Part shown: one piece after another, positions 3,854 through 50,427 of the stretch
Layout: the number at the start of each line of letters is the position of its first letter
Position numbering within the stretch: position 1 is the first letter of the stretch
From: Gammaproteobacteria bacterium
GTDB lineage: Bacteria > Pseudomonadota > Gammaproteobacteria > Ga0077536
DNA length: 64,000 nucleotides
Direction of reading: 5' to 3'
Assembly: GCA_016209015.1 (NCBI GenBank)
Contig: JACQWY010000011.1
Coordinates: forward strand, 40,922 to 104,921
Notes under the pieces: generated by a model
The model's input: the letters and a program-made list of their open reading frames with translations, nothing else
What the model was told of the DNA's origin: nothing
Database searches by the model: none
Program-made: the position numbers and the translations under genes

Positions 3854-3854
3854 G

Positions 3855-9800: not shown

Positions 9801-12800
9801 CTTGCCGACGAGCGTGTCGGCTCCCGCGCTGCCGGTCACGTCCTGAATGTTCGTCAGACTGCCGAGGTCGACGGCGATCGGGGTCGGCGACGCGGAGAAG
9901 TCGTAGTGGTTCGTGCCGGCGCCGCCGTCGGCCGTGCCCGTGATGCGGCCGGTGCCGGTGAAGGAGAACGTGTCGTTGCCGCCGCCCGCGGTGACGTTCT
10001 GCATATTGCTGAAGGCGAGCGGTGTCGCGGTGTTCACGCTGCCTGCGTCGTCCGTTCCCGCGATCGTGAACGTGAGGTCCGCGACCGCCGCCGCGAGGCT
10101 CAGCGTGTTCGTCACGCCGCCGCCCGTGCCACCCTGCAACGACCCCACGCCCGTGAAGCTCACGGGTCCGACGCTGATCGTGCCGCTGCCGCCGCCGGCG
10201 GCGACCGAATACACCGCGCTCGAGTTCGGACCGACGAGCGTCGTGTTCGCGCCGTTGCCGGTGAGCGCGTTGATGTTGCCGATCGAGCCGCCGACGCTCG
10301 TCGCCGTACCGGCCGCGAGGTTCACGTTGAGCGTCGTCGCGGGCGCGACGAGCGAATAATCGAGCGTGTTCGTGCCGCCCGCGCCGCCATTGATGTTGCC
10401 GGTGACCGAGCCGCCGTTGAACTGGAAGCTGTCGGTCGTATTGCCGCCTGTCAGCGACGAGAAGGCGGTGAACGAGAGCCCGTTCAAGGTCCCGGCATTG
10501 CTCGCGGTCAGTATCCAGGCATTGACGGTGTCGTCGCCGCTGAGCGTGTTCGTCCCGGTGCCGCCGGCCAGGCTGCCGCTGAGCGAGCCGCCGCCGCTGA
10601 ACGTCACGGCGTCCGTGCTCGTGCCGCCCGTCAGCGTCCCGAAGTTCGTGAAGGCGAGCGTGCCGCCGCCGCTCGTGAGCGAGCCGCCGTCCGCGGCGTT
10701 GACGGCCCAGGTGTTCGCCTGGTTCGCCGCAGTGAGGATGCCGCCCGCTGCGCTCGTCACGCTGTCGATGCCGCTGAACGTGCCGGTGAGGCTGCTGCTC
10801 GCGCTCGTGTCCGTGCCCGTTGCGCCGGTCGCGTCCATCGCGGAGAGCACGAGCGTGCGCGCGCTGCCGAAAGCCGCCCAGTTGATGACGTCGTTGCCGG
10901 CGTTGCCCTGGATGGAGCCGACCTGGAAGGCACCGGTGAACGTGAACGTATCCGCGTTCGCGCCGCCGATCAGCGTCTGAATATTCGTGAACGTCGTCGT
11001 CAACCCGCCGGTCGTCAGGCTGCCGGCATTCGCACCCGTGATCGAGAACGTCCCCGCCGCAACGGTGGTCAGCGTATTGACGCCCGTGCTGCCGTCGATG
11101 CCGGTCCCGCCCGTCAGGCGCCCGCCGCTGTTGACGGTGAAGTTGTCGATCTGATCCCCGCCGACGACTTGCGCGGCCGCGAACGACGTGCCGTTCAGCG
11201 TGAAGACGTCGACACCGGTGACGACCCAGTTGTTCGTCTGGCCGTTCGGTGCGGTGATCGTCGCGATGCCGGTGACGCTCTCGATGTTGTCGTAGTCGTC
11301 CACTCCGCCGACGATGGGGTCCGGCACGCCGGAGACGTCGCCCTTACCCGAACCGCCTTTGGGCGAGACGTCGACCGAGGTCGCGTAGCCCGAGAAGCTC
11401 AGGGCGTCGCTGGCGCCGGCACCGTCGACCATGCCGGTGAGCACCGCAGCTCCGGAAAAATTGAATGTGTCGGCGCCCGAACCACCCGTGAGATTGCCAC
11501 TGTGGTTTTGCGAGACGTTGAACGTATCACCGCCCGTGCCCGCCGTCAGGTTCTCGAGCGCCGAGTATGTGAGCGTGCGCCCGCCGCTGACGTAAGTCTT
11601 CGAGGCGCCGAGATTCCAGGTGGAAGCCGTGTTGCGGCCGGTCAGCGTGTCGGTCGCCGAACCGCCGACGAGCACGTCGATGTCGTCGAACGCCGTCACC
11701 GCCGCTTCCGCGCCCTGGAAGCCGTGGCTCGTACCGAGCGTCGCGGCAATCGTGATGCTGCGCGCCGTGCCGAACGCGGCGAAGCTGAGCGTGTCCGAAC
11801 CGCCGCTGCCGCCGTCGATCGAAGCCGCGGTCACGCCGCTCGCGAGCACGAAGCTGTCGTTGCCCGCGCCGCCGGTGAGCGTGCCCGTGACGCTCTGGTT
11901 GATGTTGAACGTGTCGCCGGCGCCGCCCGCCGCGAGGTTCTCGAACGCCGAGAACGTGAGCGTGTTCGTGCTGACGTAGGTCTTCGTCACACCGATGTTC
12001 CACACTGCCGCGAGCGCCGCTGCACCGGTCAGGGTATCGGTCGCGGAGCCGCCGGTGAGCACATCGATGTCGTCGAAGGCCGTCACGGCCGCTTCCGAAC
12101 CCTTGAAGCCGTGCGACGTGCCGAGTGCGCTCAGCGTCACGTTGCGCGCGGTGTTGTACGCCGCGAAGCTCAACGTATCCGTGCCGCCGCTGCCGCCGTC
12201 GATCGTGCCGGTCACGGTGCGCGTGTTCGCGAAGACGAAATCGTCCGAGCCCGCGCCGCCGGTGAGGTTGCCGGTGTGGTTGACGTTGATGTTGAACGTG
12301 TCGCCGAGGCCGCCCGCATTCAGGTTTTCGATCGCCGAGAACGTCAGCGTGTTCGTACTGACGTAGGTCCGCGTGCCGGCGATGTTCCAGACGCCCGCCG
12401 CCGCGGCGAGGCCGGCCAGGCTGTCCGTGCCCGTACCGCCGGTGAGGGCGTCGATGTTGTCGAAGCCGTTCGCGCCGCCGCCGTTGATCGCGGCCTCGTG
12501 GCCCTTGAAGCCGCGCGTCGTGCCGAGGCCGTCGAGGACGAAGGCGCGGGCCGTCGTATAGGCCGAGAAATCCAGCGTGTTCGTGCCGGAGTTCGCGCCG
12601 GCATCGATCGTTCCGGCGAGTGTGGCGCCGTCGGCGAACACGAACGTGTCCGCGCCCGTGCCACCGACGAGGTTCTCGATGCCCGCGAACGTGAGCGTGT
12701 TCGTGCTCACGTAGGTGTTCGCGCCGAGGTTCCAGGTCGAGGTCGCGTTGAGGCCGGTCAGGGTATCGGTCGCCGAGCCGCCGACGACCCGCGTGATGTT

Positions 12801-15800
12801 GTCGAACGTGCCGCTGATCGCCGCATTCGTGCCCGAGAAACCGTGGGCCGCGCCGACGCCGTTCAGTACCACGTTGCGCGCGGTGGTGTAGCCGGAGAAG
12901 CTCAGCGTGTCGAGCCCCGCGGTGCCGCCCTCGAGCGCGCCCGTGAGCACGACGGCGTCGCCGAAAACGAAGCTGTCCGCGCCCGTGCCGCCGTGGAGAC
13001 CGACGGTGTGGTTCGTGTTGATGTTGAACGTGTCGCCGCCGTCGCCGGCGATGAGGTTCTGGAAGTTCGTGAGCGTCAGCGAGTTCGCGCCGTCCGTGTA
13101 GACGTCGGACGCGCCGAGGTTCCAGGTCGCCGTGGCCGCGGCGCCTTTGAACTGGTTGCCGCCGCCGAGGTGGCCGACCAGCGCGGTGATGTTCGTGAAG
13201 CCGTCCGCGGCGCCCGCTTTCAGCACGCTGACGTGGCCGCGGAAGCCGTGCGCGCCGCCCGTACCGTCGAGCGCGATGTCGGTCGCGGCGGTCGCACCGT
13301 TGAAATCGAGCGTATCCGTGCCGGCGGAGCCGCCGTCGATCGTGCCGCTGAGCGCGGACGTACTGACGAAGGCGAACGTGTCGCTGCCGGCACCGCCGGC
13401 GAGGCTGCCCGTGAAATCCGCGTCGATGTCGAACGTGTCGCCGCCGCTGCCGGCGCGCAGCGTCTCGAAGGCGCTGAACCCCAGCACGTTCGTGCTGGTG
13501 TAGCTGAGCCCGCTGAGCGACCAGGTGCCGGCCGAGTTGATGCCCGTGAGCGTATCCGAGCCGGTACCGCCCGTGATCGTGTCGATGTTGTCGAAGCCGT
13601 TCGCGGCACCGCCGTTGAGCGCCGCTTCGTGACCCTTGAAGCCGCGATTGGTACCGACTGCATCGAGCGTGACGCTGCGCGCGGTGGTATAAGCGGCGAA
13701 GCTCAACGAGTTCGCGGAGGCGCCGCCACCACCGGCGATCGTGCCGGACAGCGTGGCGCCGTCGCTGAACACGAAGCTGTCCGCGGCCGTGCCGCCGCGC
13801 AGACTGAAGGCACCGCTCAGCGTCGCCGTGGCGCCGACAGAGATCGTAACGGCATCGGCGCCGGTGATCCCCCAGGTCGTCGCATTGTTCGGACCGACCA
13901 CCGTGCCGCCACCGGTGATCGTATCCGCGACGGTCACGCCGCTCGCGAGATTGAACGTCGTACCCGCCGCACCGGTGAGCGTGCTGCCTGCGGCGAGGCT
14001 GACGTTGATGCGCACGAGATCCGTGCCACCGCCGGTCGAGACCGTCGCTCCGGGATCGACGTTCAGATTGAACGTGTCGTTGCCGCCGCCGCCCGCGAGG
14101 TGCTGCACCGAGGTGTAATTCGCGGCGAACGGACCGGAGATGGCACCGGCGCCCGCGCCGCTCGTCGTGAACGTCGCGCCGCCCGACGGGCCGTTGATCG
14201 TGTCCGAACCGGCGCCGCCCGTGATCGAGACGTCGGTCGAGGTGTTGATCGTTACGGCGTTGAACGACAGCGCACCGGCGACGGTCTGGCCGAATTTGAG
14301 CTCGAGGTACGGGGACCCCGGCGCGAAGCTGCCGTCCTGAGCCGCGATGTTCCCCGCGAGCGAGAGGTTTTGTCCGGCCGAGAGCGTGAGCTTCGTCGGC
14401 GCGTTCCAGGTGATGTCGATCGCGCCCGACGAGCTGTCGAAAGTGATGTCCGACGGCCCGGCCGCGCCATCGACCTCGGTGTCGATGACGAGAGCGCCGG
14501 TATTCGTGAGGAAATCCGTGATGTCGGCATCGACCAGAACGTCCGTTCCCACGCTCGCGCCCAGCGCGCCATGCTTGATCGTCACCGTGCCCGGGTCGAA
14601 CAACAACGTGCCCCACCGGCCGTTCGGTGCGCGCAGATCCGCATGGCCGCCGATCTGCAGATGATGTCCCGAGACTTCCGCGAAGCCGCCGTTCCCTGCT
14701 TCTGCCGCGCCGCGCGCTTCGATCGATCCGAGGAACGTCGTCAGCCCGTTCGACCAGACGATGATCTTGCCGCCGTCGCCGGTGCCGGTCGCGCTCGCGG
14801 TGATGCTCGCGTCCCTGCCGAGTGTGGTCGTCCCGGCATTGCGCACGCCGGGGTTCGCGCCGGCACGATCGCCGCCGACGAGCGCGGCGCCGCCGCCGGC
14901 GGGGCCGGAGACGTCGATGCGTGCCTGATCGGCGAGCTCGACCGTCGTGCCGAGCACTTTCACTTCACCACCCGTGCCGCCGGAGCCCCCGGCCGCCCTG
15001 ACGACGCCGCCGCCGGCGAGCGTCGTCCTGCCGTCGGCATTCAGCTCGATGGCACCGCCATTGCCGCTGCCGGCCGCCGCAGCGTCGAGCGTGCCGGTGT
15101 TGAGGACGGATGCCTCCGGGCCGGTGGCGACGAGACGGATCACGCCGCCGCTGTTGTCGACGCGCGCGGCGCGGATGACGCCGGCGTTGTTCACGGCGCG
15201 CGAGAAGACGTCGGCCGCGGCCTTCGCCTCGATCATCACCGCGCCGCCGTCGGCGCTCACGCTGCCGGAGTTCGAAATCGCGCTGTCGAGCGCCTGGGCG
15301 TTGTCGAGCACGCCTTCGTCGACCGTGAAGCGCACGAGGCCGTCGCCGTCGAAGTCGAGCGTGACCTTGTTGCCCGCGGCGAGATTGACGCGCCCCGCGG
15401 TCGCGACGATCACGCCCTCGTTGCGCACGGCCTTGCCGGCGAGCGTCACGTCGCCGCCGGTCGCCGCCGCGATGAGGCCCTGGTTCACGACCACGCCGTC
15501 GGCGCCGTCGAGGCCTTCGAGATGGAGCCTGCCGGCCATGAAATCATCGACCTTCGCCTGCAGGCCGGCGGCGACGAGGCTGCCGACGTTGACCTGCGCG
15601 CCCGTTCCGAAGACGACGCCGTTCGGGTTCATGAGCAGCACGCGGCCGTTCGCGTTGAGTCGGCCGAAGATCTGGCTCGGGTTCTGATCGAAGATGCGAT
15701 TCAGCGCCTGGGCGTTGCGACCCGGCTGCCGGAACTCGACGAGCTCGTTCGATTTGACGTTGAACGACTGCCAGTCGATGGCGAGATTCGCGGACTGCTG

Positions 15801-16025
15801 GGTGATGCGTGTCGTGAGCGCGTCAGGTGCGCTGATCTGACCCTGGCCGGCCACGACCTGGCCGCCCTGCGGTGCGGCGAACACCTCGCTCGCCGCCACA
15901 CCGAGCAGGAGCGCGAGACGGATCTGGCGCGCGAGCGGCTTCAAGCTGCGACCGTGGGCCGGCGAATGGGCTGTCGCTGCCGTGCCGTCGTAGCGGCCGG
16001 CTGCTTTCTCAACGGGCGTCTTCAT
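3855..16025 (-). CDS. Giant filamentous-haemagglutinin-like TpsA exoprotein (4056 aa)
   Basis: Long signal peptide ending VFA-APQGGQVVAG; TPS domain (IDWQSFNV, NRI, GRLNANGRVLLMNPNGVVFG); ~3000 aa of Gly/Thr/Asn/Ala beta-repeats with GGxGxDxF/L nonapeptides; charged C-terminal region; directly downstream of tpsB. Confidence 0.93.
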   Translation of the reverse strand: MKTPVEKAAGRYDGTAATAHSPAHGRSLKPLARQIRLALLLGVAASEVFAAPQGGQVVAGQGQISAPDALTTRITQQSANLAIDWQSFNVKSNELVEFRQPGRNAQALNRIFDQNPSQIFGRLNANGRVLLMNPNGVVFGTGAQVNVGSLVAAGLQAKVDDFMAGRLHLEGLDGADGVVVNQGLIAAATGGDVTLAGKAVRNEGVIVATAGRVNLAAGNKVTLDFDGDGLVRFTVDEGVLDNAQALDSAISNSGSVSADGGAVMIEAKAAADVFSRAVNNAGVIRAARVDNSGGVIRLVATGPEASVLNTGTLDAAAAGSGNGGAIELNADGRTTLAGGGVVRAAGGSGGTGGEVKVLGTTVELADQARIDVSGPAGGGAALVGGDRAGANPGVRNAGTTTLGRDASITASATGTGDGGKIIVWSNGLTTFLGSIEARGAAEAGNGGFAEVSGHHLQIGGHADLRAPNGRWGTLLFDPGTVTIKHGALGASVGTDVLVDADITDFLTNTGALVIDTEVDGAAGPSDITFDSSSGAIDITWNAPTKLTLSAGQNLSLAGNIAAQDGSFAPGSPYLELKFGQTVAGALSFNAVTINTSTDVSITGGAGSDTINGPSGGATFTTSGAGAGAISGPFAANYTSVQHLAGGGGNDTFNLNVDPGATVSTGGGTDLVRINVSLAAGSTLTGAAGTTFNLASGVTVADTITGGGTVVGPNNATTWGITGADAVTISVGATATLSGAFSLRGGTAADSFVFSDGATLSGTIAGGGGASANSLSFAAYTTARSVTLDAVGTNRGFKGHEAALNGGAANGFDNIDTITGGTGSDTLTGINSAGTWSLSGLSYTSTNVLGFSAFETLRAGSGGDTFDIDADFTGSLAGGAGSDTFAFVSTSALSGTIDGGSAGTDTLDFNGATAATDIALDGTGGAHGFRGHVSVLKAGAADGFTNITALVGHLGGGNQFKGAAATATWNLGASDVYTDGANSLTLTNFQNLIAGDGGDTFNINTNHTVGLHGGTGADSFVFGDAVVLTGALEGGTAGLDTLSFSGYTTARNVVLNGVGAAHGFSGTNAAISGTFDNITRVVGGSATDTLTGLNATSTWNLGANTYVSTNTLTFAGIENLVGGTGADTFVFADGATLAGTIDAGANSGTNTLDFSAYTTARAFVLDGLGTTRGFKGHEAAINGGGANGFDNIDALTGGTGTDSLAGLAAAAGVWNIAGTRTYVSTNTLTFSAIENLNAGGLGDTFNINVNHTGNLTGGAGSDDFVFANTRTVTGTIDGGSGGTDTLSFAAYNTARNVTLSALGTSHGFKGSEAAVTAFDDIDVLTGGSATDTLTGAAALAAVWNIGVTKTYVSTNTLTFSAFENLAAGGAGDTFNINQSVTGTLTGGAGNDSFVLASGVTAASIDGGSGGSDTLSFAAFGTARSITIAATLGTSHGFQGAEAAVTAFDDIDVLVGGSATDTLTGRNTASTWNLGASKTYVSGGRTLTYSALENLTAGTGGDTFNVSQNHSGNLTGGSGADTFNFSGAAVLTGMVDGAGASDALSFSGYATSVDVSPKGGSGKGDVSGVPDPIVGGVDDYDNIESVTGIATITAPNGQTNNWVVTGVDVFTLNGTSFAAAQVVGGDQIDNFTVNSGGRLTGGTGIDGSTGVNTLTTVAAGTFSITGANAGSLTTGGLTTTFTNIQTLIGGANADTFTFTGAFQVGSIQGNAGNDVINWAAFGSARTLVLSAMDATGATGTDTSASSSLTGTFSGIDSVTSAAGGILTAANQANTWAVNAADGGSLTSGGGTLAFTNFGTLTGGTSTDAVTFSGGGSLSGSLAGGTGTNTLSGDDTVNAWILTASNAGTLNGLSFTAFSSLTGGNTTDSFQFNGGSVTGNINGGAGGTNTLDYSLVAPATTLNVNLAAGTATSVGGSIGNINALTGNGANTTLVGPNSSAVYSVAAGGGSGTISVGPVSFTGVGSLQGGTGGGVTNTLSLAAAVADLTFTIAGTDDAGSVNTATPLAFSNMQNVTAGGGNDTFSFTGTGRITGTADGGAGTNHYDFSASPTPIAVDLGSLTNIQDVTGSAGADTLVGKNVANTFNITGNNSGNVVNAGGTVTFSSFEGLQGGTNADAFVFAAGAFTVVAIDGAGGSDTINWSNYGTTRDVSITALDANGADGLEAGSVIGGFANVETLIGKTGAPGQLTGPNAASTWSVTGANSGTLASGGGSVAFSEFKTLTGGTATDAFAFTGGGMISGSLSGGGTASGNTLTADNAANTWTMTNATDGSVATLGGTATFTGIGNLVGNAGNDTFDFPIGVTSLGTTTVDGGAGGTNAVHFAASGVTFNLALVSNLSSVDAAGTASTNTLVASNTGTTFNVSDLDLGDVNGGMTFTNFGSLTGGTGADSFVFTSAGAVHGRISGSVDGGGGAGVNVIDFSGSTLALKYTVGGAANSGSILDEALIASPPDVDLVPTFTNVQTVTGNGLGAIYGPDAGTQASTIWKITGVNSGTFGPTTGNENTFNNFLVVGGTSNDDFRFSSGGQIAGSIIGGGGTNKVTGAAAAANTWTLDSATGGSITVGGLTTNFSGIQTLLGGGVVDTFTPNASFTGNIDGGAGANTIDWSTSGAAHDVTLTALGTTVGFQGTVTGIGGGFDDITALVNPGAFPGTLTGANLVNAWTISGADTGSVTSGGRTMAYTNFANLAGGTNADTFAFTTGSQTGAVAGGSGTDTLDWSAFATGRTVVVTALDATGASGTEASIAAGFSGIESIANRTGAAGQLTGPNATNTWTINAANGGTLASGAGTLTFADFPTLVGGTDADSFVVTRNAAGTIGHVDGSSGADTLSFAGNAGVASLTVTGSGTVDGVQGTEHFLATGFDNIDVAVGSAGTDTLTNGGVATATWAVGGSESFTVGLRTLAFSAIENLTGSAADDTFDVTGNHTGNLSGGNGNDTFNIGGTGTVLTGNLVGGTGNDSFVFSADARITGSVNGGAAGNDTLDWSASTSAVSLTITNLATLDQGDLSPLVGATGPGFTGIDVYVTNNSLSTIIGPNSNATWTINGLNTFQIVVGINNATFTNVGNLQGGSANDDFVFTAGGRLTGSINGGGGTNTITGDNVATSWTLTGATSGTITGAGTGLGGSFSGIMNVTGGSAGDTFVVVGASAFAGAIDGGLGTNTIQGGDVANTWHLNGANAGDIGGNSAFTNVSQLVGGGADDTFQFSGAAGYATLDGGVGTDRLDYSALAGPITVDLKNHTASLVTTAGGTTNVEALTGSASAADTLIADDVANTWTVTAANQGTLDSFAFTGVENLTGGAAADRYVISGAGVLVSGTMDGGAGTNELVGNGIVNGWNITGANAGTMNGNAFTNVQNLTAQGANATLAFGAVAGISGTFTAPQITLATANIDTGGTALNVQGNVVTAGVQSITAGAITIAGNVTSSGALTLTSAAAPMAITGALTGSAGVVASTGGGNFTLGGALTTSGTTTISTGGGAIVLGGAVDAHSGAFSAQAPAGSFTVGGAIAAGSVDIASANSVIGAVTTTGSQTYSGSTTFNGDLHGANLVFNGNADIAGDVLAESSTNTWTFAGSVVGNGSLDINPTAGTDLLIDTTVAARHLSSTAFSGYHGHLIVGGILTPRTGPAEDARVDEINADRITVGSTFATHGDVTLLASNIDLLADLAATGGQVTMLAVGDTQGTGSASGDITGPTVGTVGITADKAVLIANNAIVNNQNIRLDLGGGPVLVAVSSSVQQPTFDPSSNATSQTFDPTALKIISSLTNPIGVQAVQVVFSNPAAALTGLQNVQFVDVGVFEQDLTLFGVLGNGIALSLDQCEDKDGCAPNVTMEELDKLIAGLKARLDVLKQRGKGERGGGRERKDLVAEYERQLASFEGYKKQLQDYQEAQEESRKDDFEDLDVGGAKGKPPAPAANQPAPEEDFEEVEKPSATQPQAAPKAAPAPAAPAAKPAEFEELDETFDDKPKAAPVQPAPAAKPAVPAPAAPKPTPAPAPKAAPKPAGKPAAAPGEFEELEEDIDDSFILSLADNADATPHGAVAIDATGRVRWQGELLLPAVHARY

Positions 16026-18015: not shown

Positions 18016-18044
18016 AGTATATCAATGCCCTCAGCGGGGCACAA
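18016..18044 (-). promoter_or_regulatory. Sigma70-like promoter for tpsB1
   Basis: Minus strand TTGTGC-N17-TATACT in an AT-rich gap. Confidence 0.5.
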
Positions 18045-18099
18045 TAAAACTTCCCTGAGGAATTAGTCGTTTAGGGCTTGGTCTTTGCGCAGATCCTGA

Positions 18100-42941: not shown

Positions 42942-43676
42942 CTAACTCCTTGAACGCGCGGCCTCGCGATCCAGCAGCGCCGCGAAGTTGTCGAGCGACA
43001 TCAAGTGCGCATAGAGACGCGCGAGCCAGCCGCGCGTCATCAACTCGCGAAGGTTCGCCACCGGCAGCTCGTTCAGCTTCACTTCGGCGACGCGCAGCAT
43101 CCCGGTGAGGCGTTTGCGCGGCGCGGCGTTGGGATTGATGTCCGCTTCGAAAGGCTCGAGCAGGCCGAGGTCGTCTATCAGCTTCGCGAATTCGTTCGTC
43201 TGCTCGCGCGCCGCGTCGAAATCCTCGATGAGACGCCGCAGCGGGTCCCACGCCGGTGTCGGCTCGCCTCGCGCGTCGAGGAGCACGGGCGCGGCGTGCT
43301 GATCGAGACCGCTCTCTTCGACGAGTATCAGCGACTGCGCACGTCCTTCCGGGTCCGTGACGCGAGCGGTGTGGAACGGATAGCGCCGCACGTAGGCCGG
43401 ACAATACGCTTCGGGCACCCACCGGCCCTCCTGCACGAACAAATTCACGCCCGGCTCGAGCCCGGTCAGCACTACGGGCTGCGGCAGGTTCGCCTCGTCG
43501 CGCGCGAAGACGATGGGGTAGGAGCGCGCGGCCGGCACGAATTCCGGCACGGTCAGGTAGAACGAGTGAAGTGTCGCGGCGAAACTCTGCGCGCCGGCAT
43601 GGATACCGCGCAGGCGATGTTTCGTCTTGTCGAATGGGGCGACCGCCCGGTAGCCCGGCGGTGCGGGGATCGCCAT
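42942..43676 (-). CDS. SapC family protein (copy 2)
   Basis: EFVPAARSYPIVF, PVVLTGL, YCPAYVRRYPF, LYAHLMSLDNF. Confidence 0.88.
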   Translation of the reverse strand: MAIPAPPGYRAVAPFDKTKHRLRGIHAGAQSFAATLHSFYLTVPEFVPAARSYPIVFARDEANLPQPVVLTGLEPGVNLFVQEGRWVPEAYCPAYVRRYPFHTARVTDPEGRAQSLILVEESGLDQHAAPVLLDARGEPTPAWDPLRRLIEDFDAAREQTNEFAKLIDDLGLLEPFEADINPNAAPRKRLTGMLRVAEVKLNELPVANLRELMTRGWLARLYAHLMSLDNFAALLDREAARSRS

Positions 43677-43689: not shown

Positions 43690-44391
43690 TTACTGGCAGT
43701 CCTGCGGATTCGCGGCGGGCGTCGGATCGTGCGTGACCGGATTTCCCGAGCCGAGCGTGACGTTCGTCGGCGGGCCGCCGCGCTGGTCGACGAAGCCCCC
43801 CATGCCCTGCTCGAAGCCGAGCCTGCCGCCCTGCAGACCCGTCACGTCGATGCTGCCCTGGTGCACCTTGAAGTAGAGGCCCGGCTTCGGCTTGATGCCC
43901 ATGTCCGGGCAGCCGTCGGTGCAGTCGATCGCCTCGACGTCCGTGCCGCGGATCCCGATTGTCGCCACCGCCGTGCGATAACGGATTCCGGCGTGATTGC
44001 GCTGACCGATCAAACCGGTCACGGCCCGGAAGCCGCCCTTCAGCAGATTGAAGAAGCCGCGACTCTCGTTCGCGTTGTCGCTCAGCTTGTAGTCCTCGAT
44101 CTGGAAACGCGTGCTCGGACGCAGCACGATGAAGCTGCCGTCGGAGAGCTTCATGCGCATGAAGCTGTTCGTCGCAGTCACGACCGTATCGCCCGTGTTG
44201 ACGGGATGACCCTGCTGGAGATTGCGGATGTCGCCTTCCGAGGTCGCGGCCTGCGCCTTCCCGGTCAGTGTCACGACTTCGCCGGCCTTGTCGACCGCGT
44301 AGACCGCGGGCAGCGCGCCCATGATTCCGGCAAAGAGCAGGGCCCCGAGGCCTCCCGCGACGGTCTTGCGTCTGGCGCCTGCGTTCATCAT
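43690..44391 (-). CDS. Stand-alone FecR-domain exported protein
   Basis: Signal/anchor helix; GDTVVT, LSDGS-IVLRPST, LLKGGFRAVTG, T-VATIGIRGT; ATG 44391 overlaps the tpsA2 TGA (ATGA coupling); ORF track starts 44397. Confidence 0.88.
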   Translation of the reverse strand: MMNAGARRKTVAGGLGALLFAGIMGALPAVYAVDKAGEVVTLTGKAQAATSEGDIRNLQQGHPVNTGDTVVTATNSFMRMKLSDGSFIVLRPSTRFQIEDYKLSDNANESRGFFNLLKGGFRAVTGLIGQRNHAGIRYRTAVATIGIRGTDVEAIDCTDGCPDMGIKPKPGLYFKVHQGSIDVTGLQGGRLGFEQGMGGFVDQRGGPPTNVTLGSGNPVTHDPTPAANPQDCQ

Positions 44392-47300
44392 TGGCATAGC
44401 TGACCCTTGTTCGATTGTTGCGTGATTAGCCCGTCGCCACCACCGCCTTCGCCTTCTTCGCCCGTGTCGACGTTGTTGCGCCGCTCGTCATCTTCCGTCG
44501 TCGTGTCGTCGCTGAATTCATCCACGACCGGTGCCTTGAAGACCTCGGTGACCGGCGCGAGCAGGAGCTCGAGATCCGCGATGAAGCCCGTCGACAACAC
44601 GTTCTTGATGCCGCTGACGCCGCCGGTCGTCGCGAAGAGGATGTTCTGATCGCCGATATCGAACGCGCCACCCGAGCCGATCGTGATCTTGCCCGTCTGC
44701 TTGCCCCCCGGCAGCGACAGGCCGCCGATCAGGATCGTCGTGCCCGGCAGGGTCTTGAAGTTCGTATCGGCGTAGAAGCCGGTACCGGCCATGCCGGAAA
44801 CGTACGTGCCCTCGACCGCGATGGGATTCGTGTGGGTGTAGGCCGCGTACTGCGCGATGAAGCTCACCTTGGTCGGGTTGATGCTCTGGACTGGCCCGGT
44901 CAGTACCGGCCCATCCGACTGGAACACCACATACGGCGTATCCGGATCGTCGAATTTGAGGCCGCCGGAGGCGCCGCTGTGACCGAAGCCCGAGGCGCCA
45001 ATCATGATGCCGCCCTGCGCGCGGAACACCGCGTTAGGACCCACCCCGACCTTGCCCTGGTACTCCGGCACCGGGAGATGCTGGCCGTCGGGACGCACTG
45101 CGAGCGACAACGCCTTGATCGTCAGCTCGTCACCGAGCTTCGCCGGCAGCGGCACGTCACCGATCAAGACGGAACCCGGGATGAACAATCCGCCGTTGTT
45201 GACCTCGACGTAGAGGTTCTTCGCGGCGAAATCGCCGACGATGAGCGTGTTGCCGCCGAAGCCGAATTTAGTCTCGCCCAGCATGGCGGTACCGGAGCTC
45301 GAACCGCGGGCCGAGCTGCCCAGGCCGATGCTCGAGGGCAAGGCGAACTGAGAGCTCAGGTAGAGGACGGTCTGGCCCGCGTACGTCCGATTGTCTATCG
45401 CGACGGCCGGTGCGAATGTGCCGGGCACGGCGAAATTGATCATCGGTGCGTTCGTCTGCACGCTGACCGGCCCACCGCCGTCGTCGCCGATGAACACTTC
45501 CGTGTTCGCGATGAGAATGCCGGCGCCGATGGTCTGGATGCCGCCTGCGCCACCGTTCCGAACCTGCACGTATCCGGAGGAGCCGCCGACGGCGGCAACC
45601 GGCCCGCCGATCGTGATCGCCCCGGCCGAGGTGTTGCGGATGCGGACGCCCGCGAAGCTCGGCCCGGTCGCGACGATCGTTCCGGCAACCGAGACACCGC
45701 TCTGGCCGAGGATATCGACCGCCGCACCGCTGTAGCTGGAACCGCCGTAACTCGTGCTACCGAGGTAACCGGACCCCGTCCCGCGCACGGAAATGCCGCT
45801 CTTCACCGCGACCGTCGCGCCCCTGAGTTGAACGAGCGCGTTCGAACTCGCTGCGGACGCCGTGATCGCGCCGTTGACAGCAATCGAGCCCGTGGCGCTG
45901 ACGCGGATAATCTGCTGCCACTTCCCGACCGCACTCATCGCGCCGCCGACCGTGATGTTGCCGCCGGAGCTGTCGTTGTAGAGGCTGATCCATCCGCTGC
46001 CGCCGGTGTTGGCCACGCTGAGGTTGCCGCCGATGGCGATGTTGCCCGCGCCCTGGTTCTTCACGTAGATGGAAGAGCTCGAGCTCGCGGCGGTCGCGGT
46101 CATGTTGCCGCTGACGTTGATGCCTCCACCGTTCCAGTTCTCGATGTCGATCCAGGCTCCGGAGTCCCCACCGGTCACGGTGACGCTGCCGTTGACGTTG
46201 ATCGCTCCCCCGCCCGAATTGTGTACGTACACCGAGCCGCTCGCGGAAGAGGAGGCTCCGCCGTTCGCCGTGAGATTGCCGTTGATCGCGATGCCGCCGC
46301 CGTTCGCGGAGTTGCCGATATCGATCGAGGCGTCGCCGCGCGTGGCCGTTGCCAGCACATTGCCGGTGATCTGCACGTTGCCGGTCGAGAAATTGTGCGC
46401 GGAGATGCTGGCCGAACCGCCGGTCGCCGTGATGTTGCCGTTGACGACGAGACCGTTCTGAGCGTTCAGATCGATGCTGGCACTGCCATAGGACGCGGCG
46501 GTTGCCACGGTGATGGCGCCGTTCAGGTTCAGGCTCGTGCCGTCCATGCGCAGCCGCGCGTCCCCCGAAGCCTGCACGGTGCGAACCGTGATGGCACCAC
46601 TCGTCACGACCGGGCCCGACGATGCGTTGAAACGCAATCCCGCCCCGTACGATCCCGTGACCGACACCGCGCCGGTGACACCGATGTGCGTCGCGGCCTG
46701 TATGTTCAGCATCGCGCCGCCGAAATACGCGCCGCTGTTCGAGCCACCGCTGAAGCCGCTGAGCGTGGCACCTTGCGCGACGTCTACGGAATTGCCGGAG
46801 AGGCTCACAAGCGAGTAAACGCCCGTGTTCGGAATGGCGATCGCGCTGATCGGACCGGCCACCGTCAGATGAGCACCAGTGGCGGCGATATCCGCCTTCA
46901 ACGCGCCGCTGCCCGTGAGCGTCAGCGAGCCCATCGTGACGTCGCCGTGGGCCGTGACCTGCACGCGGTTCGCGCTCACGTTGCCGAGTTGCACGACACC
47001 GGCGGTGCTGCCGGCCTGGGCGTTGAGCTGCCCCCTGAGCGCGATGTTCACGCCGGCGAGGTGGATATCGCCCGCGGCCGTGGGGAGAAACGTCGGGACA
47101 CCGCTGCACACACCGAAGGAGCACGCCCCGGAATAGTTGCCGATGCCGAGCCTCAGGTTGCCCGCGAGGCTGCCCGACGTCGCATCGACGGTCATCGGGC
47201 CGGCCGCGAAGATTTCGTTCGTCGCGATGAGGCTGACGTTCACACCTGATTTGAGCTGGTTCTCGATGAAGCTCTTGCCGACGGTCGTGAAGCTCGAGGC

Positions 47301-48554
47301 GAGGCTGCCGCTGCCGTTGCCGTACGACGGATTCGAGGCGTCATTCAGGATCTTCAAACGCGCCGGATCGATGAAGAGCTGGCCGCCCTTGCCGAGCTCG
47401 ACCTTGCCGCGCAGCGCGATGCTCTGGTGACCGCTGACCTCGACCGCGCCGCCAGTGCCGCCCTGGTCGCCACCGGTCGCGACGATGGTCGCGCCGGCCG
47501 CGAAATTCAGATGCCCGTCCGCGATCACGCGGACCGCGCCCCCGTTACCCGCAGCATCGCCGCTCGCATCGATCGTGGACTGCGGTGCGAGCGTCACGTC
47601 GTGGTCGCTGACTACGACGGCCTTGCCGCCGCTCTGGCCCTGCTCGCCCGCGACGTCGATCGTGCCGGCATTGACGACGTTGCCGCCACCCGCGGCGAGC
47701 ACGATCTCGCCCTCGTGTTCCTGGATGGAGCGCGCACGCATGAGCCCTTCGTTGTTCACCGCCGCCGCGGCGAGGCCGTCCGCGACTTTCGCCGTCATCA
47801 CCACGCGGCCGCCGTCGGCGACGATCTGGCCCGCGTTCTTCACGCCCGCGAGGGCGGAGACGGTCTTCTCGTCGACTGCGATGTTGACGAGGCCGTCCTG
47901 GTTGATGTCGAGCGTGATCTTGTTGCCGGAGGCGAGCGCGACGGTGCCGAGCTTCGCGCTGATGAGGCCGCTGTTGTCGGCGCGGTCGCCGAGCAGCGCG
48001 ACGAAACCGTCCGCGCCGTTCGTCGAAATCCGTCCTTCGTTCACCACGGAAGCACCGTCCGGACTGTTCGCGGTCTTCGTGAACACGTAACGGCCGTTCA
48101 TGAAATCGTCGTCGCGGATGTCCAGCACGCTCGCGGCGATCGCACCGACGTCCACCTGCGCGCCGGGTGCGAAATACACGCCGCGCGGGTTGACCAGGAA
48201 CACCCTGCCGTTCGCCTCGAGGCGGCCGAAGATGCTCGACATGTCGGGGCCGACGACGCGGTTCAGAATCGCGGCGTTCGTACCCGGCTGCACGAACTTC
48301 ACGTATTCGTTGCCGGCGATGGAGAACGACTGCCAGTTCATCACCGCCTGCTGGCTCGTCTGGGTGACGACGGTCGAGCCCGCATCCGGGCGTGCGACCG
48401 TGGCTGCACCGCCGAGGAGCTGCTCGCCGGCCGGACCGGCCAGCGCGAGACCCGGCAGCGCAGCGAGTGCGCCGTAGCCCAGCGCTATGCTCGTGCGGCT
48501 GCGAATGCCCGCCGCGATCGGCTTGAGAAAGAATTCCTGAGACGTGGCTGTCAT
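44388..48554 (-). CDS. Filamentous-haemagglutinin-like TpsA exoprotein (1388 aa)
   Basis: Signal peptide ending ALA-GP; TPS domain (MNWQSFSI, ILNRV, GRLEANGRVFLVNPRGVYF); Gly/Ser/Asn-rich beta-helix passenger; acidic tail ending GQLCQ. Confidence 0.93.
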   Translation of the reverse strand: MTATSQEFFLKPIAAGIRSRTSIALGYGALAALPGLALAGPAGEQLLGGAATVARPDAGSTVVTQTSQQAVMNWQSFSIAGNEYVKFVQPGTNAAILNRVVGPDMSSIFGRLEANGRVFLVNPRGVYFAPGAQVDVGAIAASVLDIRDDDFMNGRYVFTKTANSPDGASVVNEGRISTNGADGFVALLGDRADNSGLISAKLGTVALASGNKITLDINQDGLVNIAVDEKTVSALAGVKNAGQIVADGGRVVMTAKVADGLAAAAVNNEGLMRARSIQEHEGEIVLAAGGGNVVNAGTIDVAGEQGQSGGKAVVVSDHDVTLAPQSTIDASGDAAGNGGAVRVIADGHLNFAAGATIVATGGDQGGTGGAVEVSGHQSIALRGKVELGKGGQLFIDPARLKILNDASNPSYGNGSGSLASSFTTVGKSFIENQLKSGVNVSLIATNEIFAAGPMTVDATSGSLAGNLRLGIGNYSGACSFGVCSGVPTFLPTAAGDIHLAGVNIALRGQLNAQAGSTAGVVQLGNVSANRVQVTAHGDVTMGSLTLTGSGALKADIAATGAHLTVAGPISAIAIPNTGVYSLVSLSGNSVDVAQGATLSGFSGGSNSGAYFGGAMLNIQAATHIGVTGAVSVTGSYGAGLRFNASSGPVVTSGAITVRTVQASGDARLRMDGTSLNLNGAITVATAASYGSASIDLNAQNGLVVNGNITATGGSASISAHNFSTGNVQITGNVLATATRGDASIDIGNSANGGGIAINGNLTANGGASSSASGSVYVHNSGGGAINVNGSVTVTGGDSGAWIDIENWNGGGINVSGNMTATAASSSSSIYVKNQGAGNIAIGGNLSVANTGGSGWISLYNDSSGGNITVGGAMSAVGKWQQIIRVSATGSIAVNGAITASAASSNALVQLRGATVAVKSGISVRGTGSGYLGSTSYGGSSYSGAAVDILGQSGVSVAGTIVATGPSFAGVRIRNTSAGAITIGGPVAAVGGSSGYVQVRNGGAGGIQTIGAGILIANTEVFIGDDGGGPVSVQTNAPMINFAVPGTFAPAVAIDNRTYAGQTVLYLSSQFALPSSIGLGSSARGSSSGTAMLGETKFGFGGNTLIVGDFAAKNLYVEVNNGGLFIPGSVLIGDVPLPAKLGDELTIKALSLAVRPDGQHLPVPEYQGKVGVGPNAVFRAQGGIMIGASGFGHSGASGGLKFDDPDTPYVVFQSDGPVLTGPVQSINPTKVSFIAQYAAYTHTNPIAVEGTYVSGMAGTGFYADTNFKTLPGTTILIGGLSLPGGKQTGKITIGSGGAFDIGDQNILFATTGGVSGIKNVLSTGFIADLELLLAPVTEVFKAPVVDEFSDDTTTEDDERRNNVDTGEEGEGGGGDGLITQQSNKGQLCQ

Positions 48555-48681: not shown

Positions 48682-50358
48682 TCAATAGTTTGCAGAAAAG
48701 CCCGCCCACACGCGCGCACCGCCCTCGCCATCGGTCGAATCGTAAGCGCCGAGCGGATGCGAAACCGAAACGTCGACGTCGAAGTAGCGGGTCGCGTGCG
48801 CCAGGATCCCGAAGCCGATCCCGGTCAGCGACTGGGTGTGATGAACGCCGAGCTTCTCGTATTCCTTCGTGAACACGCGGCCGTGATCGATGAACACTTT
48901 CGCGGTGGTGTCGAACATCTTCCACTCCGGCAGCGGATGCTGCAGCTCGGCACTCAGGAAGTAGCCGTCGTCGCCACTGAGCTCGGAGGACGGGAACGCA
49001 CGGACGCTGGTCGGGCCGCCGAGACGGAAGCGCTCGGTGTCGACGAGCGGCTTCGCGGAGGCGACGCCCGTCGCGCGGAGTGCGACGGAGAGCTCGTGGT
49101 AGACCTTGCGGAAGTGACTCAGGTCGATCTGGAATTTCGCCGCCTCGGCGTTGTTCTCGGCCTTGCCGCTGGCCGGCGTGTTCGCATCGAAGTTCGACGA
49201 GAACGAGAAATTCGCGGTGCTGAAGCTCGAATCCGGATGGATGTAAGTGACGAGGGCGGTCAGCACGCCGACGCCGATGTCCTCGCCGGACCGCGTGCCC
49301 GTGCCGCGCTCGAACTGCCGCGTCACGGTGCGATCGAAGCCGAGCCCCATGTACAGATTGAGATTCTTCGAGCGGATGAACGGGTGCAGCACGTTGATCC
49401 CGAAGTTGTCACCTTCGCCATCGAGATCCAGCGAGGAGAACGCCGCCGGCAGACGATTGCGATCGACGTTGTAGTCGTAGCGCGCGAAATAGGCCGAAAC
49501 GCGCGTGCCCTGGTTCGTAATCGGCAGACTGTAGCGGAAACGGCCGTAGTGGAGCAGGCCGCGTTCGGCCATGACGCCCGACATCTCGAGCTTGTCACCG
49601 CGCCCCGTCAGGCCGTTCAGCGCGAGATCGGCCTCGGTGCGCCACTCGCCGATCGACGAGCGGCCGTAGTTGTTCAGGCGCAGCGCGGCATCGACCAGCT
49701 TCTCGGCGGATTGCACCGTGATGTCCGAGGTGCCGTATTCGTCGCCGGGCTGAATGACGCTCCTGGCGGAATAGCCCGGGAGATCGTTCAGCACGAGCAG
49801 CTGGCGCTCGAGCGCGGAGTCGCGGACCACTTCGCCGGACTTCAGGCTCGTCATGTTCCAGCGCAGGAAGTTCTCGTTGTAGCGGCGCTCGCCTTCGACG
49901 TTGATCTTGCCGATGCGGCCCTCGATCACTTCGAGCTTGATCGTGCCGGAAGCGACTTTCTGCGCCGGCACGTTCGCGCTTGCGACAGTGAAGCCGTGGG
50001 TGCGGTAATAGCGCGTGACGAGATCGGCGACGTCGTAGATTTCGAGCAGGGTGAGCTGCTTGCCCTCGTAGGGCGCGACGACCTGGTGGAGCTCGTCGCC
50101 CGAGATGGCACTGTTGCCCGTGATCTCGAACCGTTCGACGAGCACCTGCTTGCCGCCGGCGGGAACGCCCGCGCCGGCCTGCGGCGCGGCGGGCGCCTTC
50201 GGCAGGAGATCGGCGGGCGTCTTCGGCAATTCCTGGCGGGGACGCAGGGGTTCTTGCACGGTACCGGGCGTCGGTACGGCTTGGCCGTAGGCCGCGCAGG
50301 CGGTGGTGCAGGCGATTACGGCGGACAGGAGCCGCAGGGGCGTCGGGGCGCTTCTCAC
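48682..50358 (-). CDS. TpsB (ShlB/FhaC/HecB family) outer-membrane transporter, locus 2
   Basis: Signal peptide (AYG-Q), POTRA segments, LGGPTSVRAF loop-6 motif, C-terminal FSANY; GTG 50358 preferred because TTG 50394 lies at the predicted transcription start. Confidence 0.93.
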   Translation of the reverse strand: MRSAPTPLRLLSAVIACTTACAAYGQAVPTPGTVQEPLRPRQELPKTPADLLPKAPAAPQAGAGVPAGGKQVLVERFEITGNSAISGDELHQVVAPYEGKQLTLLEIYDVADLVTRYYRTHGFTVASANVPAQKVASGTIKLEVIEGRIGKINVEGERRYNENFLRWNMTSLKSGEVVRDSALERQLLVLNDLPGYSARSVIQPGDEYGTSDITVQSAEKLVDAALRLNNYGRSSIGEWRTEADLALNGLTGRGDKLEMSGVMAERGLLHYGRFRYSLPITNQGTRVSAYFARYDYNVDRNRLPAAFSSLDLDGEGDNFGINVLHPFIRSKNLNLYMGLGFDRTVTRQFERGTGTRSGEDIGVGVLTALVTYIHPDSSFSTANFSFSSNFDANTPASGKAENNAEAAKFQIDLSHFRKVYHELSVALRATGVASAKPLVDTERFRLGGPTSVRAFPSSELSGDDGYFLSAELQHPLPEWKMFDTTAKVFIDHGRVFTKEYEKLGVHHTQSLTGIGFGILAHATRYFDVDVSVSHPLGAYDSTDGEGGARVWAGFSANY

Positions 50359-50384
50359 ACTATTTAATCTCACAGCCGTATGGG

Positions 50385-50427
50385 AATCTTCCAAGGAAGA
50401 TTATAAACACGATATAAGGGATTGCAA
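50385..50427 (-). promoter_or_regulatory. Sigma70-like promoter with overlapping palindromic operator candidate
   Basis: Minus strand TTGCAA-N16-TATAAT (50427-50400); AATCTTCC-AA-GGAAGATT perfect 8-bp inverted repeat at 50385-50402. Confidence 0.6.

What the first reader, a model, noticed from the sequence alone, without database searches (positions are those of the whole stretch)
43690..44402. TpsA2 and the translationally coupled FecR protein both end in ...C-Q-stop with an odd Cys count
Seen: TpsA2 ends GQLCQ and the FecR protein ends PQDCQ. Each has three Cys by my reading: one close pair (CSFGVC; CTDGC) plus the penultimate Cys, leaving one unpaired in each. The genes overlap by ATGA, implying roughly 1:1 synthesis. 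Inference: an intermolecular disulfide could tether the exoprotein's periplasmic tail to the FecR-like protein, a two-protein version of the HMW1/CdrA cysteine hook.
Basis: partly seen in the sequence, partly recalled or inferred. Interest (0 to 1): 0.7.

Follow-up and report, generated by a model that had tools for sequence, protein, structure and literature searches.

The report
Cysteine-tipped adhesin and its periplasmic partner
A secreted surface fibre protein and a small periplasmic protein encoded right after it each end in one strictly conserved, unpaired cysteine, which suggests an undescribed way of leashing such fibres to the cell by a disulfide to a separate "stopper" protein.

Summary
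TpsA2 (44388-48554, minus strand) ends GQLCQ and has Cys at 478, 483 and 1387. The overlapping FecR-domain gene (43690-44397) ends PQDCQ and has Cys at 159, 163 and 234.

This is not chance:
- In 54 loci where both tails can be read, both proteins carry a Cys in their last 7 residues. This holds across gene-order changes and down to about 35% identity.
- In 108 of 110 complete TpsA relatives with a terminal Cys, every other Cys sits in a close pair. In 40 of them the terminal Cys is the only one.
- Mature TpsB has no Cys.
- Three TpsAs without a FecR gene also lack the terminal Cys: the window's own TpsA1 and two sister loci nested among Cys-tailed relatives.
- FecR-domain proteins without a terminal Cys never sit next to a TpsA.

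The FecR-like protein resembles the LapA/MpIBP periplasmic plug, but so do its Cys-less relatives.

Best reading (about 0.55): a tail-to-tail disulfide makes the FecR-like protein a separate stopper that holds TpsA in its TpsB pore. The bond is inferred, not shown. I found no paper describing it, although earlier notes in this scan reached the same reading.

The parts
48682..50394 (-). tpsB2: outer-membrane transporter (POTRA_2 + ShlB barrel). Its only two Cys (29, 33) lie in the signal peptide, so the mature protein has none. The exact start codon is uncertain.
   Evidence: Pfam PF03865 and PF08479. N-terminus ...AVIACTTACAAYGQ|AVPTPG; 17 of 18 orthologues have no Cys after the cleavage site (L024 has one, at 126).
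44388..48554 (-). tpsA2: 1388-aa exoprotein with a TPS domain, beta-helix repeats, a disordered acidic/Gly tail and a penultimate Cys.
47655..48377 (-). TPS secretion domain of TpsA2 (residues 60-300).
   Evidence: PF05860, E=2.7e-32.
47106..47123 (-). Close Cys pair CSFGVC (C478/C483), probably a small internal loop. The pair is present in many orthologues and absent in others.
44391..44558 (-). Tail of TpsA2, residues 1333-1388: APVTEVFKAPVVDEFSDDTTTEDDERRNNVDTGEEGEGGGGDGLITQQSNKGQLCQ. It is predicted to be disordered and is proposed to thread the TpsB pore.
   Evidence: AF2 model of the last 300 aa: residues 1-241 have pLDDT mostly >90, residues 245-300 <50. Alignment A2.
44394..44396 (-). 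Codon of TpsA2 Cys1387, the lone unpaired terminal Cys.
   Evidence: It is one of only 4 invariant columns in the last 300 residues of 24 orthologues.
43690..44397 (-). FecR-domain gene (235 aa from ATG 44397; 233 aa if it starts at 44391). It encodes a soluble periplasmic protein, the proposed trans-acting stopper.
44296..44397 (-). Signal peptide of the FecR-like protein (residues 1-34, ...ALPAVYA|VD). There is no lipobox and no transmembrane anti-sigma part.
   Evidence: Direct reading of the sequence. The helix at residues 16-26 is the only helix before the beta domains.
43927..44286 (-). Beta-sandwich region (residues 38-157). It is related to the LapA retention module (residues 38-103) and matches the FecR domain (residues 70-157). 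It contains the invariant IGIRG|T motif.
   Evidence: NF033682, E=3.8e-8, 33.6 bits, below the cut-off of 50. PF04773. Top Foldseek hit is 5ix9. Invariant columns.
43909..43923 (-). Close Cys pair CTDGC (C159/C163). It is conserved in at least 90% of homologues but missing in P0107 and P0110, which keep the terminal Cys.
43693..43758 (-). Pro-rich tail of the FecR-like protein, TLGSGNPVTHDPTPAANPQDCQ, modelled with low confidence. Cys234 is at 43696-43698.
   Evidence: pLDDT is 61 and 53 in the last two blocks. C234 is invariant.
42942..43676 (-). sapC-family gene, the conserved downstream neighbour. It is kept in loci that lack FecR, so it is not part of the Cys pair.
   Evidence: PF07277. 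Synteny; L085 and L092.
3855..16025 (-). In-window control, tpsA1 (4056 aa). Its Cys occur only at 3813/3819, it ends ...AVHARY with no terminal Cys, and there is no FecR gene. It is flanked by tpsB1 (16127-18025) and a SapC gene (3107-3853).

Best explanation
This is a three-gene type Vb (two-partner) secretion module.

Proposed mechanism:
1. TpsB exports TpsA2 N-terminus first.
2. The last ~56 residues of TpsA2 are a disordered acidic, Gly-rich tail. This tail stays threaded through or below the TpsB pore, so its penultimate Cys1387 is in the periplasm.
3. The FecR-domain protein is a soluble periplasmic beta-sandwich protein with a flexible Pro-rich tail ending in Cys234.
4. The periplasmic oxidising machinery joins the two terminal cysteines.
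5. The folded ~21-kDa FecR-like protein is too large for the pore, so it acts as a separate stopper that keeps TpsA2 on the cell surface.

This would be the two-chain equivalent of the intramolecular C-terminal disulfide loop of HMW1, HxuA and CdrA, and of the N-terminal retention module of LapA-type adhesins.

Shown here: the gene arrangement, the domains, the cysteine pattern, its conservation and its co-loss. Inferred: the topology of the tail, the disulfide bond and the retention function.
For: 1. Both terminal Cys are present in all 54 loci with readable tails. These include loci with a different gene order (tpsB - tandem-FecR - tpsA: L052, L053, L062, L063, L071) and distant pairs (L038, L069, L070, L081-L084, L089).
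2. The flanking tail sequence turns over (GQMCE, MECSA, KRCN, VDCD, PVCI) while the Cys stays.
3. The Cys are unpaired. In 108 of 110 complete TpsA relatives with a terminal Cys, all other Cys lie in pairs no more than 12 residues apart. In 40 the terminal Cys is the only Cys. 107 of 121 FecR relatives have exactly 3 mature Cys, and P0110 has only the terminal one.
4. No other partner is encoded in the conserved core, because mature TpsB has no Cys.
5. Co-loss: L085 (P0220) and L092 have tpsB-tpsA-sapC with no FecR gene and no terminal Cys. They are sisters nested inside a well-supported clade of Cys-tailed TpsAs.
6. The window's own TpsA1 likewise has neither a FecR gene nor a terminal Cys.
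7. Apparent exceptions P0170 and P0184 are broken genes, and their real C-terminal pieces end in Cys.
8. The 23 FecR-domain proteins with a readable C-terminus that lack a terminal Cys have no TpsA within 10 kb.
9. Background rate: only 8 of 150 TpsA1-type representatives have a Cys in the last 8 residues.
10. The structure fits. The TpsA tail (residues 245-300 of the last 300) is disordered, and the FecR tail is modelled with low confidence.
11. The best PDB fold match of the FecR-like model is the periplasmic plug RIN of MpIBP (5ix9; TM 0.85 on the target, rmsd 2.0), and NF033682 retention_LapA matches all 33 family members.
12. Precedent: HMW1 and HxuA lock their C-terminus in TpsB with a disulfide loop (PMC5422565). 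CdrA uses a cysteine hook (10.1101/198937). RIN is too large to pass TolC (PMC5550230).
Against: - No direct evidence of a bond. A multimer prediction was not possible with these tools.
- The terminal-Cys FecR proteins form a single clade (96% support), so the association with TpsA is statistically one origin plus one loss.
- The resemblance to the LapA retention module is shared by FecR-domain proteins that have no terminal Cys and no TpsA, so it does not discriminate.
- A subgroup of partners ends GCPDCG[SQ] and could close its own disulfide.
- Four Oceanococcus loci (L036, L042, L059, L076) have a Cys-tailed FecR next to an uncharacterised barrel but no TpsA within 10 kb.
- Acidic residues next to both Cys would raise the thiol pKa.
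- Homodimers cannot be excluded.
Confidence: 0.55

Rival explanations
1. The two tails are covalently linked, but the purpose is signalling or regulated release rather than a permanent anchor. The FecR-fold protein would be a transducer or holdase leashed to the surface fibre. The link could be resolved by a second Cys (the CPxC variants), by reduction, or by FecR-type G|T self-cleavage. It could also report to a periplasmic sensor.
For: - L084 has tpsB-tpsA-FecR followed by a CHASE2 guanylate cyclase.
- FecR-domain proteins are known neighbours of CHASE2 sensors (PMC5192318).
- The IGIRGT motif is invariant and sits in a low-confidence loop of the model.
- A subgroup ends GCPDCG, like a CxxC redox motif.
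Against: - Most loci, including this window, have no sensor gene in the operon.
- The protein has no transmembrane or cytoplasmic part that could pass a signal.
- Self-cleavage is untested.
Confidence: 0.17
2. There is no heterodimer. Each terminal Cys forms a homodimer (TpsA-TpsA, FecR-FecR) or binds a metal or another unlinked partner. The FecR-like protein would serve TpsA non-covalently, for example as a periplasmic chaperone or POTRA-docking factor.
For: - Sequence alone cannot tell hetero- from homodimers.
- Oceanococcus FecR proteins keep the terminal Cys without a neighbouring TpsA.
- In the CPxC subgroup the FecR partner could be self-satisfied.
Against: - Loss of the FecR gene coincides with loss of the TpsA Cys.
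- Both Cys sit on long flexible tails at the extreme ends, which suits a tail-to-tail link.
- Genomes with two such systems encode a dedicated Cys-tailed partner for each (L002 with L052, L015 with L053).
Confidence: 0.15
3. The terminal Cys are sites of a shared modification (lipid, thioester or other), or free thiols with a catalytic or sensing role. They would not be disulfide partners.
For: Both Cys share a near-terminal position, often preceded by an acidic residue. Cytoplasmic modifying enzymes (a GT-B-like glycosyltransferase and a conserved 362-aa protein) are syntenic in many loci.
Against: The loci with the alternative gene order keep the two Cys but have none of those enzymes. No known bacterial sorting or lipidation signal looks like these tails. 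The periplasm is oxidising, so free thiols on flexible tails are unlikely to persist.
Confidence: 0.05
4. Phylogenetic inertia: both Cys were inherited from one ancestor and carry no function.
For: The terminal Cys has a single origin on the FecR tree.
Against: The Cys is one of only 4 invariant columns in the last 300 residues of TpsA at 29% mean identity. The neighbouring residues and tail lengths vary freely. TpsA passengers are otherwise depleted of Cys (PMC5422565).
Confidence: 0.03

Closest known systems
HMW1/HMW1B and HxuA/HxuB of Haemophilus influenzae (C-terminal anchor of TpsA)
   Same: Both are TPS exoproteins kept on the cell. The extreme C-terminus is thought to stay periplasmic, and a disulfide creates something too bulky for the TpsB pore (PMC5422565).
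   Different: In HMW1 and HxuA the disulfide is intramolecular, between two Cys in the last ~20-66 residues of one chain. Here the tail has a single Cys, the next Cys is 900 residues away, and the proposed partner Cys is on a separate, dedicated periplasmic protein.
CdrA/CdrB of Pseudomonas aeruginosa ('cysteine hook' plus LapG site)
   Same: A TpsA adhesin is anchored through its TpsB pore by C-terminal cysteines.
   Different: The CdrA hook is intramolecular, and release is by LapG cleavage at a TAAG motif. By eye, the TpsA2 tail printed has no AAG motif, and no LapG or LapD gene is in the operon.
Retention module of LapA / RIN domain of MpIBP (type I secreted giant adhesins; PDB 5ix9; NCBIfam NF033682)
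   Same: It is a small periplasmic beta-sandwich that plugs an outer-membrane pore and is followed by a flexible Gly-rich linker through the pore. It is the best fold match of the FecR-like model, and there is a sub-threshold sequence match over residues 38-103.
   Different: In LapA and MpIBP the plug is the N-terminus of the adhesin itself and the pore is TolC-like. Here it would be a separate protein attached by a disulfide to the C-terminus of a TpsA, at a TpsB pore. The HMM score is below the family cut-off, and the similarity extends to Cys-less FecR proteins.
FecR/PupR-type anti-sigma regulators of cell-surface signalling
   Same: They share the FecR domain (PF04773) and the conserved G-T motif. 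PupR CCSSD is the second fold match.
   Different: The protein has no cytoplasmic anti-sigma domain and no transmembrane helix. There is no ECF sigma or TonB-dependent transducer in the operon. The neighbours are tpsA and sapC.
FhaB prodomain of Bordetella (my own knowledge)
   Same: The C-terminal part of a TpsA is held in the periplasm and controls retention and release.
   Different: The prodomain is ~1200 residues of the same chain and is removed by proteolysis. No disulfide or third protein is involved.

Membership tests
Two-partner (type Vb) secretion system | Exoprotein with an N-terminal TPS domain | tested here: met
   PF05860, 113 bits against a cut-off of 33.5, residues 60-300.
Two-partner (type Vb) secretion system | Adjacent Omp85-type transporter with POTRA_2 and a ShlB barrel | tested here: met
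   PF03865 and PF08479 in 48682-50394. The same order is found in 18 or more orthologous loci.
HMW1/HxuA/CdrA-type C-terminal anchor (cysteine hook) | Two Cys in the C-terminal anchor region of the TpsA that form an intramolecular loop | tested here: not met
   The tail has one Cys (1387). The next Cys are at 478 and 483. In 40 relatives the terminal Cys is the only Cys.
HMW1/HxuA/CdrA-type C-terminal anchor (cysteine hook) | C-terminus stays periplasmic and the exoprotein is retained on the cell | not testable with these tools
   Only a disordered 56-residue tail is predicted. Topology needs experiment.
CdrA/LapA LapG-controlled adhesins | LapG dialanine (TAAG-type) site next to the retention element, and LapG/LapD genes | tested here: not met
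   Checked by eye only, with no motif search: the TpsA2 tail printed has no AAG motif. None of the 15 window ORFs scanned against Pfam (37.8-63.9 kb) is named as a LapG- or LapD-type protein.
LapA-type retention module (NF033682) | HMM score above the curated cut-off | tested here: not met
   33.6 bits against a cut-off of 50. All 33 family members match below the cut-off.
LapA-type retention module (NF033682) | RIN-like beta-sandwich fold | tested here: inconclusive
   Top Foldseek hit 5ix9: E=1.2e-3, TM 0.85 on the target, 75 columns. The same sequence similarity is present in Cys-less FecR proteins.
FecR-type anti-sigma factor (cell-surface signalling) | FecR periplasmic domain | tested here: met
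   PF04773, 36 bits against a cut-off of 24.
FecR-type anti-sigma factor (cell-surface signalling) | N-terminal cytoplasmic anti-sigma domain plus transmembrane helix, with ECF sigma and TonB-dependent transducer as partners | tested here: not met
   There is only a cleavable signal peptide before the beta domains. The neighbours are tpsA and sapC.

The most novel reading that the evidence does not exclude
A widespread, undescribed 'three-partner' class of type Vb secretion. The exoprotein would be covalently leashed through the TpsB pore, tail to tail, to a dedicated periplasmic FecR/retention-module-fold protein. The leash would be switchable by redox (CPxC variants), by FecR-type G|T self-cleavage, or by coupling to CHASE2 sensors. 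Surface display, release and perhaps signalling of giant adhesins would then be controlled from the periplasm.
Probability: 0.17. Interest if true: 0.85.

Novelty: new variant of a known kind. Interest (0 to 1): 0.7.

Why it matters
Two-partner secretion is taught as a two-protein pathway. Retention of its adhesins is known only from intramolecular C-terminal loops (HMW1, HxuA, CdrA) or from a long prodomain (FhaB).

A conserved third protein that captures the exoprotein's last cysteine would add a covalent, possibly reversible, anchoring principle. It would also link the FecR fold and the LapA retention-module fold to a common job at outer-membrane pores.

The family is large: 553 FecR-type and 688 TpsA-type clusters at the thresholds used. 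It occurs in many uncultured Gammaproteobacteria and some Betaproteobacteria.

The idea can be tested directly with two point mutants and a non-reducing gel.

Tried and rejected
- TpsB as the disulfide partner: rejected, because mature TpsB has no Cys.
- Intramolecular pairing of the terminal Cys: rejected for the 40 TpsA relatives and one FecR relative in which it is the only Cys.
- TpsA hits that seemed to lack a terminal Cys: P0170 has a frameshift and P0184 an ISL3 insertion. Six others (P0175, P0178, P0189, P0214, P0217, P0239) are labelled partial in their records, and P0225 looks truncated but was not checked. These are not true exceptions.
- Correlated-evolution test on the FecR tree: no power, because there is only one independent contrast.
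- The retention_LapA match as specific evidence: weakened, because Cys-less FecR proteins match it too.
- Fold search with the TpsA C-terminal domain: no meaningful PDB match.
- Literature searches for FecR with two-partner secretion, filamentous haemagglutinin, intermolecular disulfide or CHASE2/POTRA: no description of this pairing.
- SapC, the GT-B-like glycosyltransferase and the conserved 362-aa protein as parts of the Cys system: rejected. They are absent from the loci with the alternative gene order, and SapC persists where FecR is lost.
P0230 could not be located.
Full report
**What is there.** On the minus strand the window carries these genes in order:
- tpsB2 (48682-50394; POTRA_2 + ShlB)
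- tpsA2 (44388-48554; 1388 aa; TPS domain, 113 bits)
- a FecR-domain gene (43690-44397; 235 aa; PF04773, 36 bits)
- sapC (42942-43676)
- a conserved 362-aa gene
- ffh

TpsA2 has three Cys: 478 and 483 (CSFGVC) and 1387 (...GQLCQ*). The FecR-like protein has a signal peptide (...AVYA|VD) and three Cys: 159 and 163 (CTDGC) and 234 (...PQDCQ*). The tpsA stop overlaps the third Met codon of the FecR frame as ATGA. The first ATG, 6 nt further upstream, has an AAGGG Shine-Dalgarno at 6 nt, so the overlap may be 10 nt instead. Only the start codon is ambiguous.

**Conservation in the FecR-like protein.**
- A search found 553 relatives.
- All 121 sequences inspected end in a Cys followed by 0-3 residues, and 107 have exactly three mature Cys.
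- In an alignment of 33 sequences at 39-68% identity, C234 is invariant and C159/C163 are at least 90% conserved.
- P0107 and P0110 have lost the CxxxC pair but keep the terminal Cys. Mature P0110 has no other Cys.

**Conservation in TpsA.**
- Of 119 relatives, 106 have a Cys in the last 6 residues and three more have it at -7.
- Of the ten others, six are labelled partial in their records (P0175, P0178, P0189, P0214, P0217, P0239), one (P0225) looks truncated but was not checked, and two are broken genes. P0170 has a frameshift and P0184 an ISL3 insertion, and their real C-terminal pieces end MECSA and VLCK. One, P0220, is a true exception, discussed below.
- Among 110 complete relatives with the terminal Cys, 108 have an odd number of mature Cys, with all the others in pairs no more than 12 residues apart. 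In 40 the terminal Cys is the only Cys in a protein of 1100-2000 residues.
- In an alignment of the last 300 residues of 24 orthologues (mean identity 29%), only four columns are invariant. One is this Cys.

**The two Cys travel together.** I fetched 80 genomic loci with the FecR alignment and 12 more from TpsA hits and a metagenome scan.
- In all 54 loci where both tails can be read, both proteins carry the terminal Cys.
- These include the syntenic GT-tpsB-tpsA-fecR-sapC-362aa-ffh group.
- They also include a second architecture, tpsB - tandem FecR (450-790 aa, ending ECTVQ, EQCD or DECTE) - tpsA (2000-2600 aa, ending KRCN, QECGI, VDCD or NECSI). Further gene orders occur in L038, L045, L069 and L070.
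- Several MAGs hold one system of each architecture, each with its own Cys-tailed partner (L002 with L052, L015 with L053, L001 with L054).
- The 23 FecR-domain proteins with a readable C-terminus that lack a terminal Cys have no TPS-domain ORF within 10 kb on either strand.
- Mature TpsB has no Cys. The window's C29 and C33 lie in the signal peptide, and 17 of 18 orthologues also have none after the cleavage site (L024 has one).

**Co-loss and controls.**
- P0220 (L085) is an intact 1376-aa TpsA ending ...GSRSGP whose only Cys are a close pair. Its locus is tpsB-tpsA-sapC-360aa, with 25 bp between tpsA and sapC and no FecR gene.
- L092 from a metagenome is the same: TpsA ends ...HDGSEL, is followed by sapC, and has no FecR.
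- On a TPS-domain tree these two are nearest neighbours. They are nested in a 97%-supported clade whose 50 other members all have the terminal Cys.
- The window itself gives a control. TpsA1 (3855-16025, 4056 aa) has its own TpsB and a SapC neighbour but no FecR gene. It has Cys only at 3813/3819 and ends ...AVHARY.
- Among the 150 closest 50%-identity representatives of the TpsA1 type, only 8 have a Cys in the last 8 residues.

**Limits of the comparative evidence.**
- On the FecR-domain tree, the terminal-Cys proteins are one side of a single 96%-supported branch. Gain of the Cys and association with TpsA therefore count as one event, and a paired-contrast test has no power.
- The case rests on the depth and strictness of conservation, one co-loss lineage, the in-genome control and the lack of any other Cys partner.
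- Four Oceanococcus loci have a Cys-tailed FecR beside an uncharacterised barrel but no TpsA nearby.
- A subgroup of FecR partners ends GCPDCG[SQ], with two terminal Cys, while their TpsAs keep one unpaired terminal Cys.

**Structure.**
- The AF2 model of the FecR-like protein has mean pLDDT 84. It shows beta domains over residues 37-126 and 138-213, a low-confidence Pro-rich tail, and a dip at 148-151, just before the invariant G151-T152.
- Its best PDB match is 5ix9, the RIN domain of the MpIBP ice adhesin (E=1.2e-3, TM 0.85 on the target, rmsd 2.0 over 75 columns). The next match is the PupR C-terminal signalling domain.
- RIN is the periplasmic beta-sandwich proposed to plug the TolC-like pore because it is too large to pass (PMC5550230). 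It served as the template for the LapA retention module (10.1101/198937).
- Independently, NCBIfam NF033682 (retention_LapA) matches residues 38-103 at E=3.8e-8 and matches all 33 family members, always below the curated cut-off.
- Cys-less FecR proteins from TpsA-free loci match it as well. The similarity is therefore a property of this whole FecR clade and supports plausibility only.
- The AF2 model of the last 300 residues of TpsA2 is well folded to residue 241 and disordered from 245 to the end. This gives a ~56-residue acidic, Gly-rich tail, long enough to cross a barrel.

**Mechanism proposed.**
1. TpsA2 is exported through TpsB.
2. Its disordered tail remains in or below the pore.
3. 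Cys1387 is oxidised to Cys234 of the periplasmic FecR-like protein.
4. The folded partner cannot pass the pore, so the fibre stays tethered.

The cysteine pattern and its evolution are shown. The topology, the bond and the function are inferred.

Known relatives of the idea are the intramolecular disulfide anchors of HMW1 and HxuA (PMC5422565), the CdrA cysteine hook and the LapA/MpIBP retention module. The differences are that here the plug would be a separate gene product, joined covalently, and acting at the C-terminus of a TpsA.

I give this reading about 0.55. The rivals:
- The same link used for signalling or regulated release, 0.17. L084 has a CHASE2 cyclase after the FecR gene, and FecR-CHASE2 pairing is known (PMC5192318).
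- Homodimers or a non-covalent role, 0.15.
- A shared modification, 0.05.
- Inertia, 0.03.

**Novelty.** Six of the seven full-text searches were aimed at this pairing, and none found a paper linking a FecR-domain protein to a TpsA through terminal cysteines (only retrieved the CdrA comparison papers). Earlier notes of this scan reached the same reading in other genomes. Those are leads, not evidence. They do show that the pattern recurs and that this window is another member, of the short single-FecR, tpsA-then-fecR form. What this window adds is an internal FecR-less control, a co-loss clade, the demonstration that TpsB has no Cys, and the CPxC variant.

Noticed in passing
window 3107-19194 (-): A second TPS locus with the order PPIase-domain gene (18100-19194), tpsB1 (16127-18025), tpsA1 (3855-16025, 4056 aa) and a SapC-family gene (3107-3853). 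A SapC gene follows both TPS loci of the window, and it persists in loci that lack FecR. SapC may therefore be a general, unexplained TPS companion in this lineage.
   Followed up: partly
window 43942-43956 (-), FecR-like residues 148-152: The motif IGIRG|T is invariant in 33 homologues and lies in the only internal low-confidence loop of the model. From my own knowledge, it corresponds to the Gly-Thr self-cleavage site of FecR-type anti-sigma factors. Whether this soluble protein cleaves itself was not tested.
   Followed up: no
L012 5639-6334, L015 9929-10600; proteins P0036, P0038, P0049, P0051, P0052, P0062: A subgroup of FecR partners ends GCP[DT]CG[SQ], a CxxC-like pair at the very end, instead of a single Cys. 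Their TpsAs still end in one unpaired Cys (KGKVCSN, KGKVCE). This could be a resolving cysteine for a reversible link.
   Followed up: partly
L084 2982-14664: The gene order is tpsB - tpsA (2264 aa, ends QQVVCK) - FecR (ends AIQC) - CHASE2 guanylate cyclase. The Cys-tailed pair sits directly beside a periplasmic-sensor cyclase.
   Followed up: no
L039 8591-11626 and similar loci (L044, L049, L050, L057, L060, L065-L068, L072-L079): The Cys-less sister clade of long FecR-domain proteins (450-2300 aa) is preceded by an outer-membrane barrel with N-terminal TPR repeats. That barrel gives weak, sub-threshold matches to Slam-type (TPR_Slam, BBP2_2) families. FecR/retention-module-like domains thus recur beside different outer-membrane translocators.
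   Followed up: partly
L036, L042 (8314-10702), L059, L076: Oceanococcus loci have a ~557-aa barrel with no Pfam match followed by a 234-aa FecR protein ending QTCE or QTCN. No TPS-domain gene lies within 10 kb, and a two-component system lies upstream. The partner of this terminal Cys is unknown.
   Followed up: partly
L087 6001-11860; L086 4648-8141; L056 3883-11393: Natural disruptions of tpsA: an ISL3 transposase inserted in L087 and frameshifts in L086 and L056. The FecR gene downstream is intact in each.
   Followed up: yes
window 41772-42860 (-): The 362-aa protein between sapC and ffh has no Pfam or NCBIfam match, yet it is extremely conserved in the related loci (phmmer E around 1e-190 to 1e-210). 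These include the FecR-less locus L085, where a 360-aa gene occupies the same place.
   Followed up: no
L003, L005, L014, L015, L004, L016, L070 (record titles): Several MAG records carrying this gammaproteobacterial synteny are titled Klebsiella pneumoniae, Hydrogenophaga intermedia or Bordetella parapertussis. The titles look unreliable as taxonomy.
   Followed up: no
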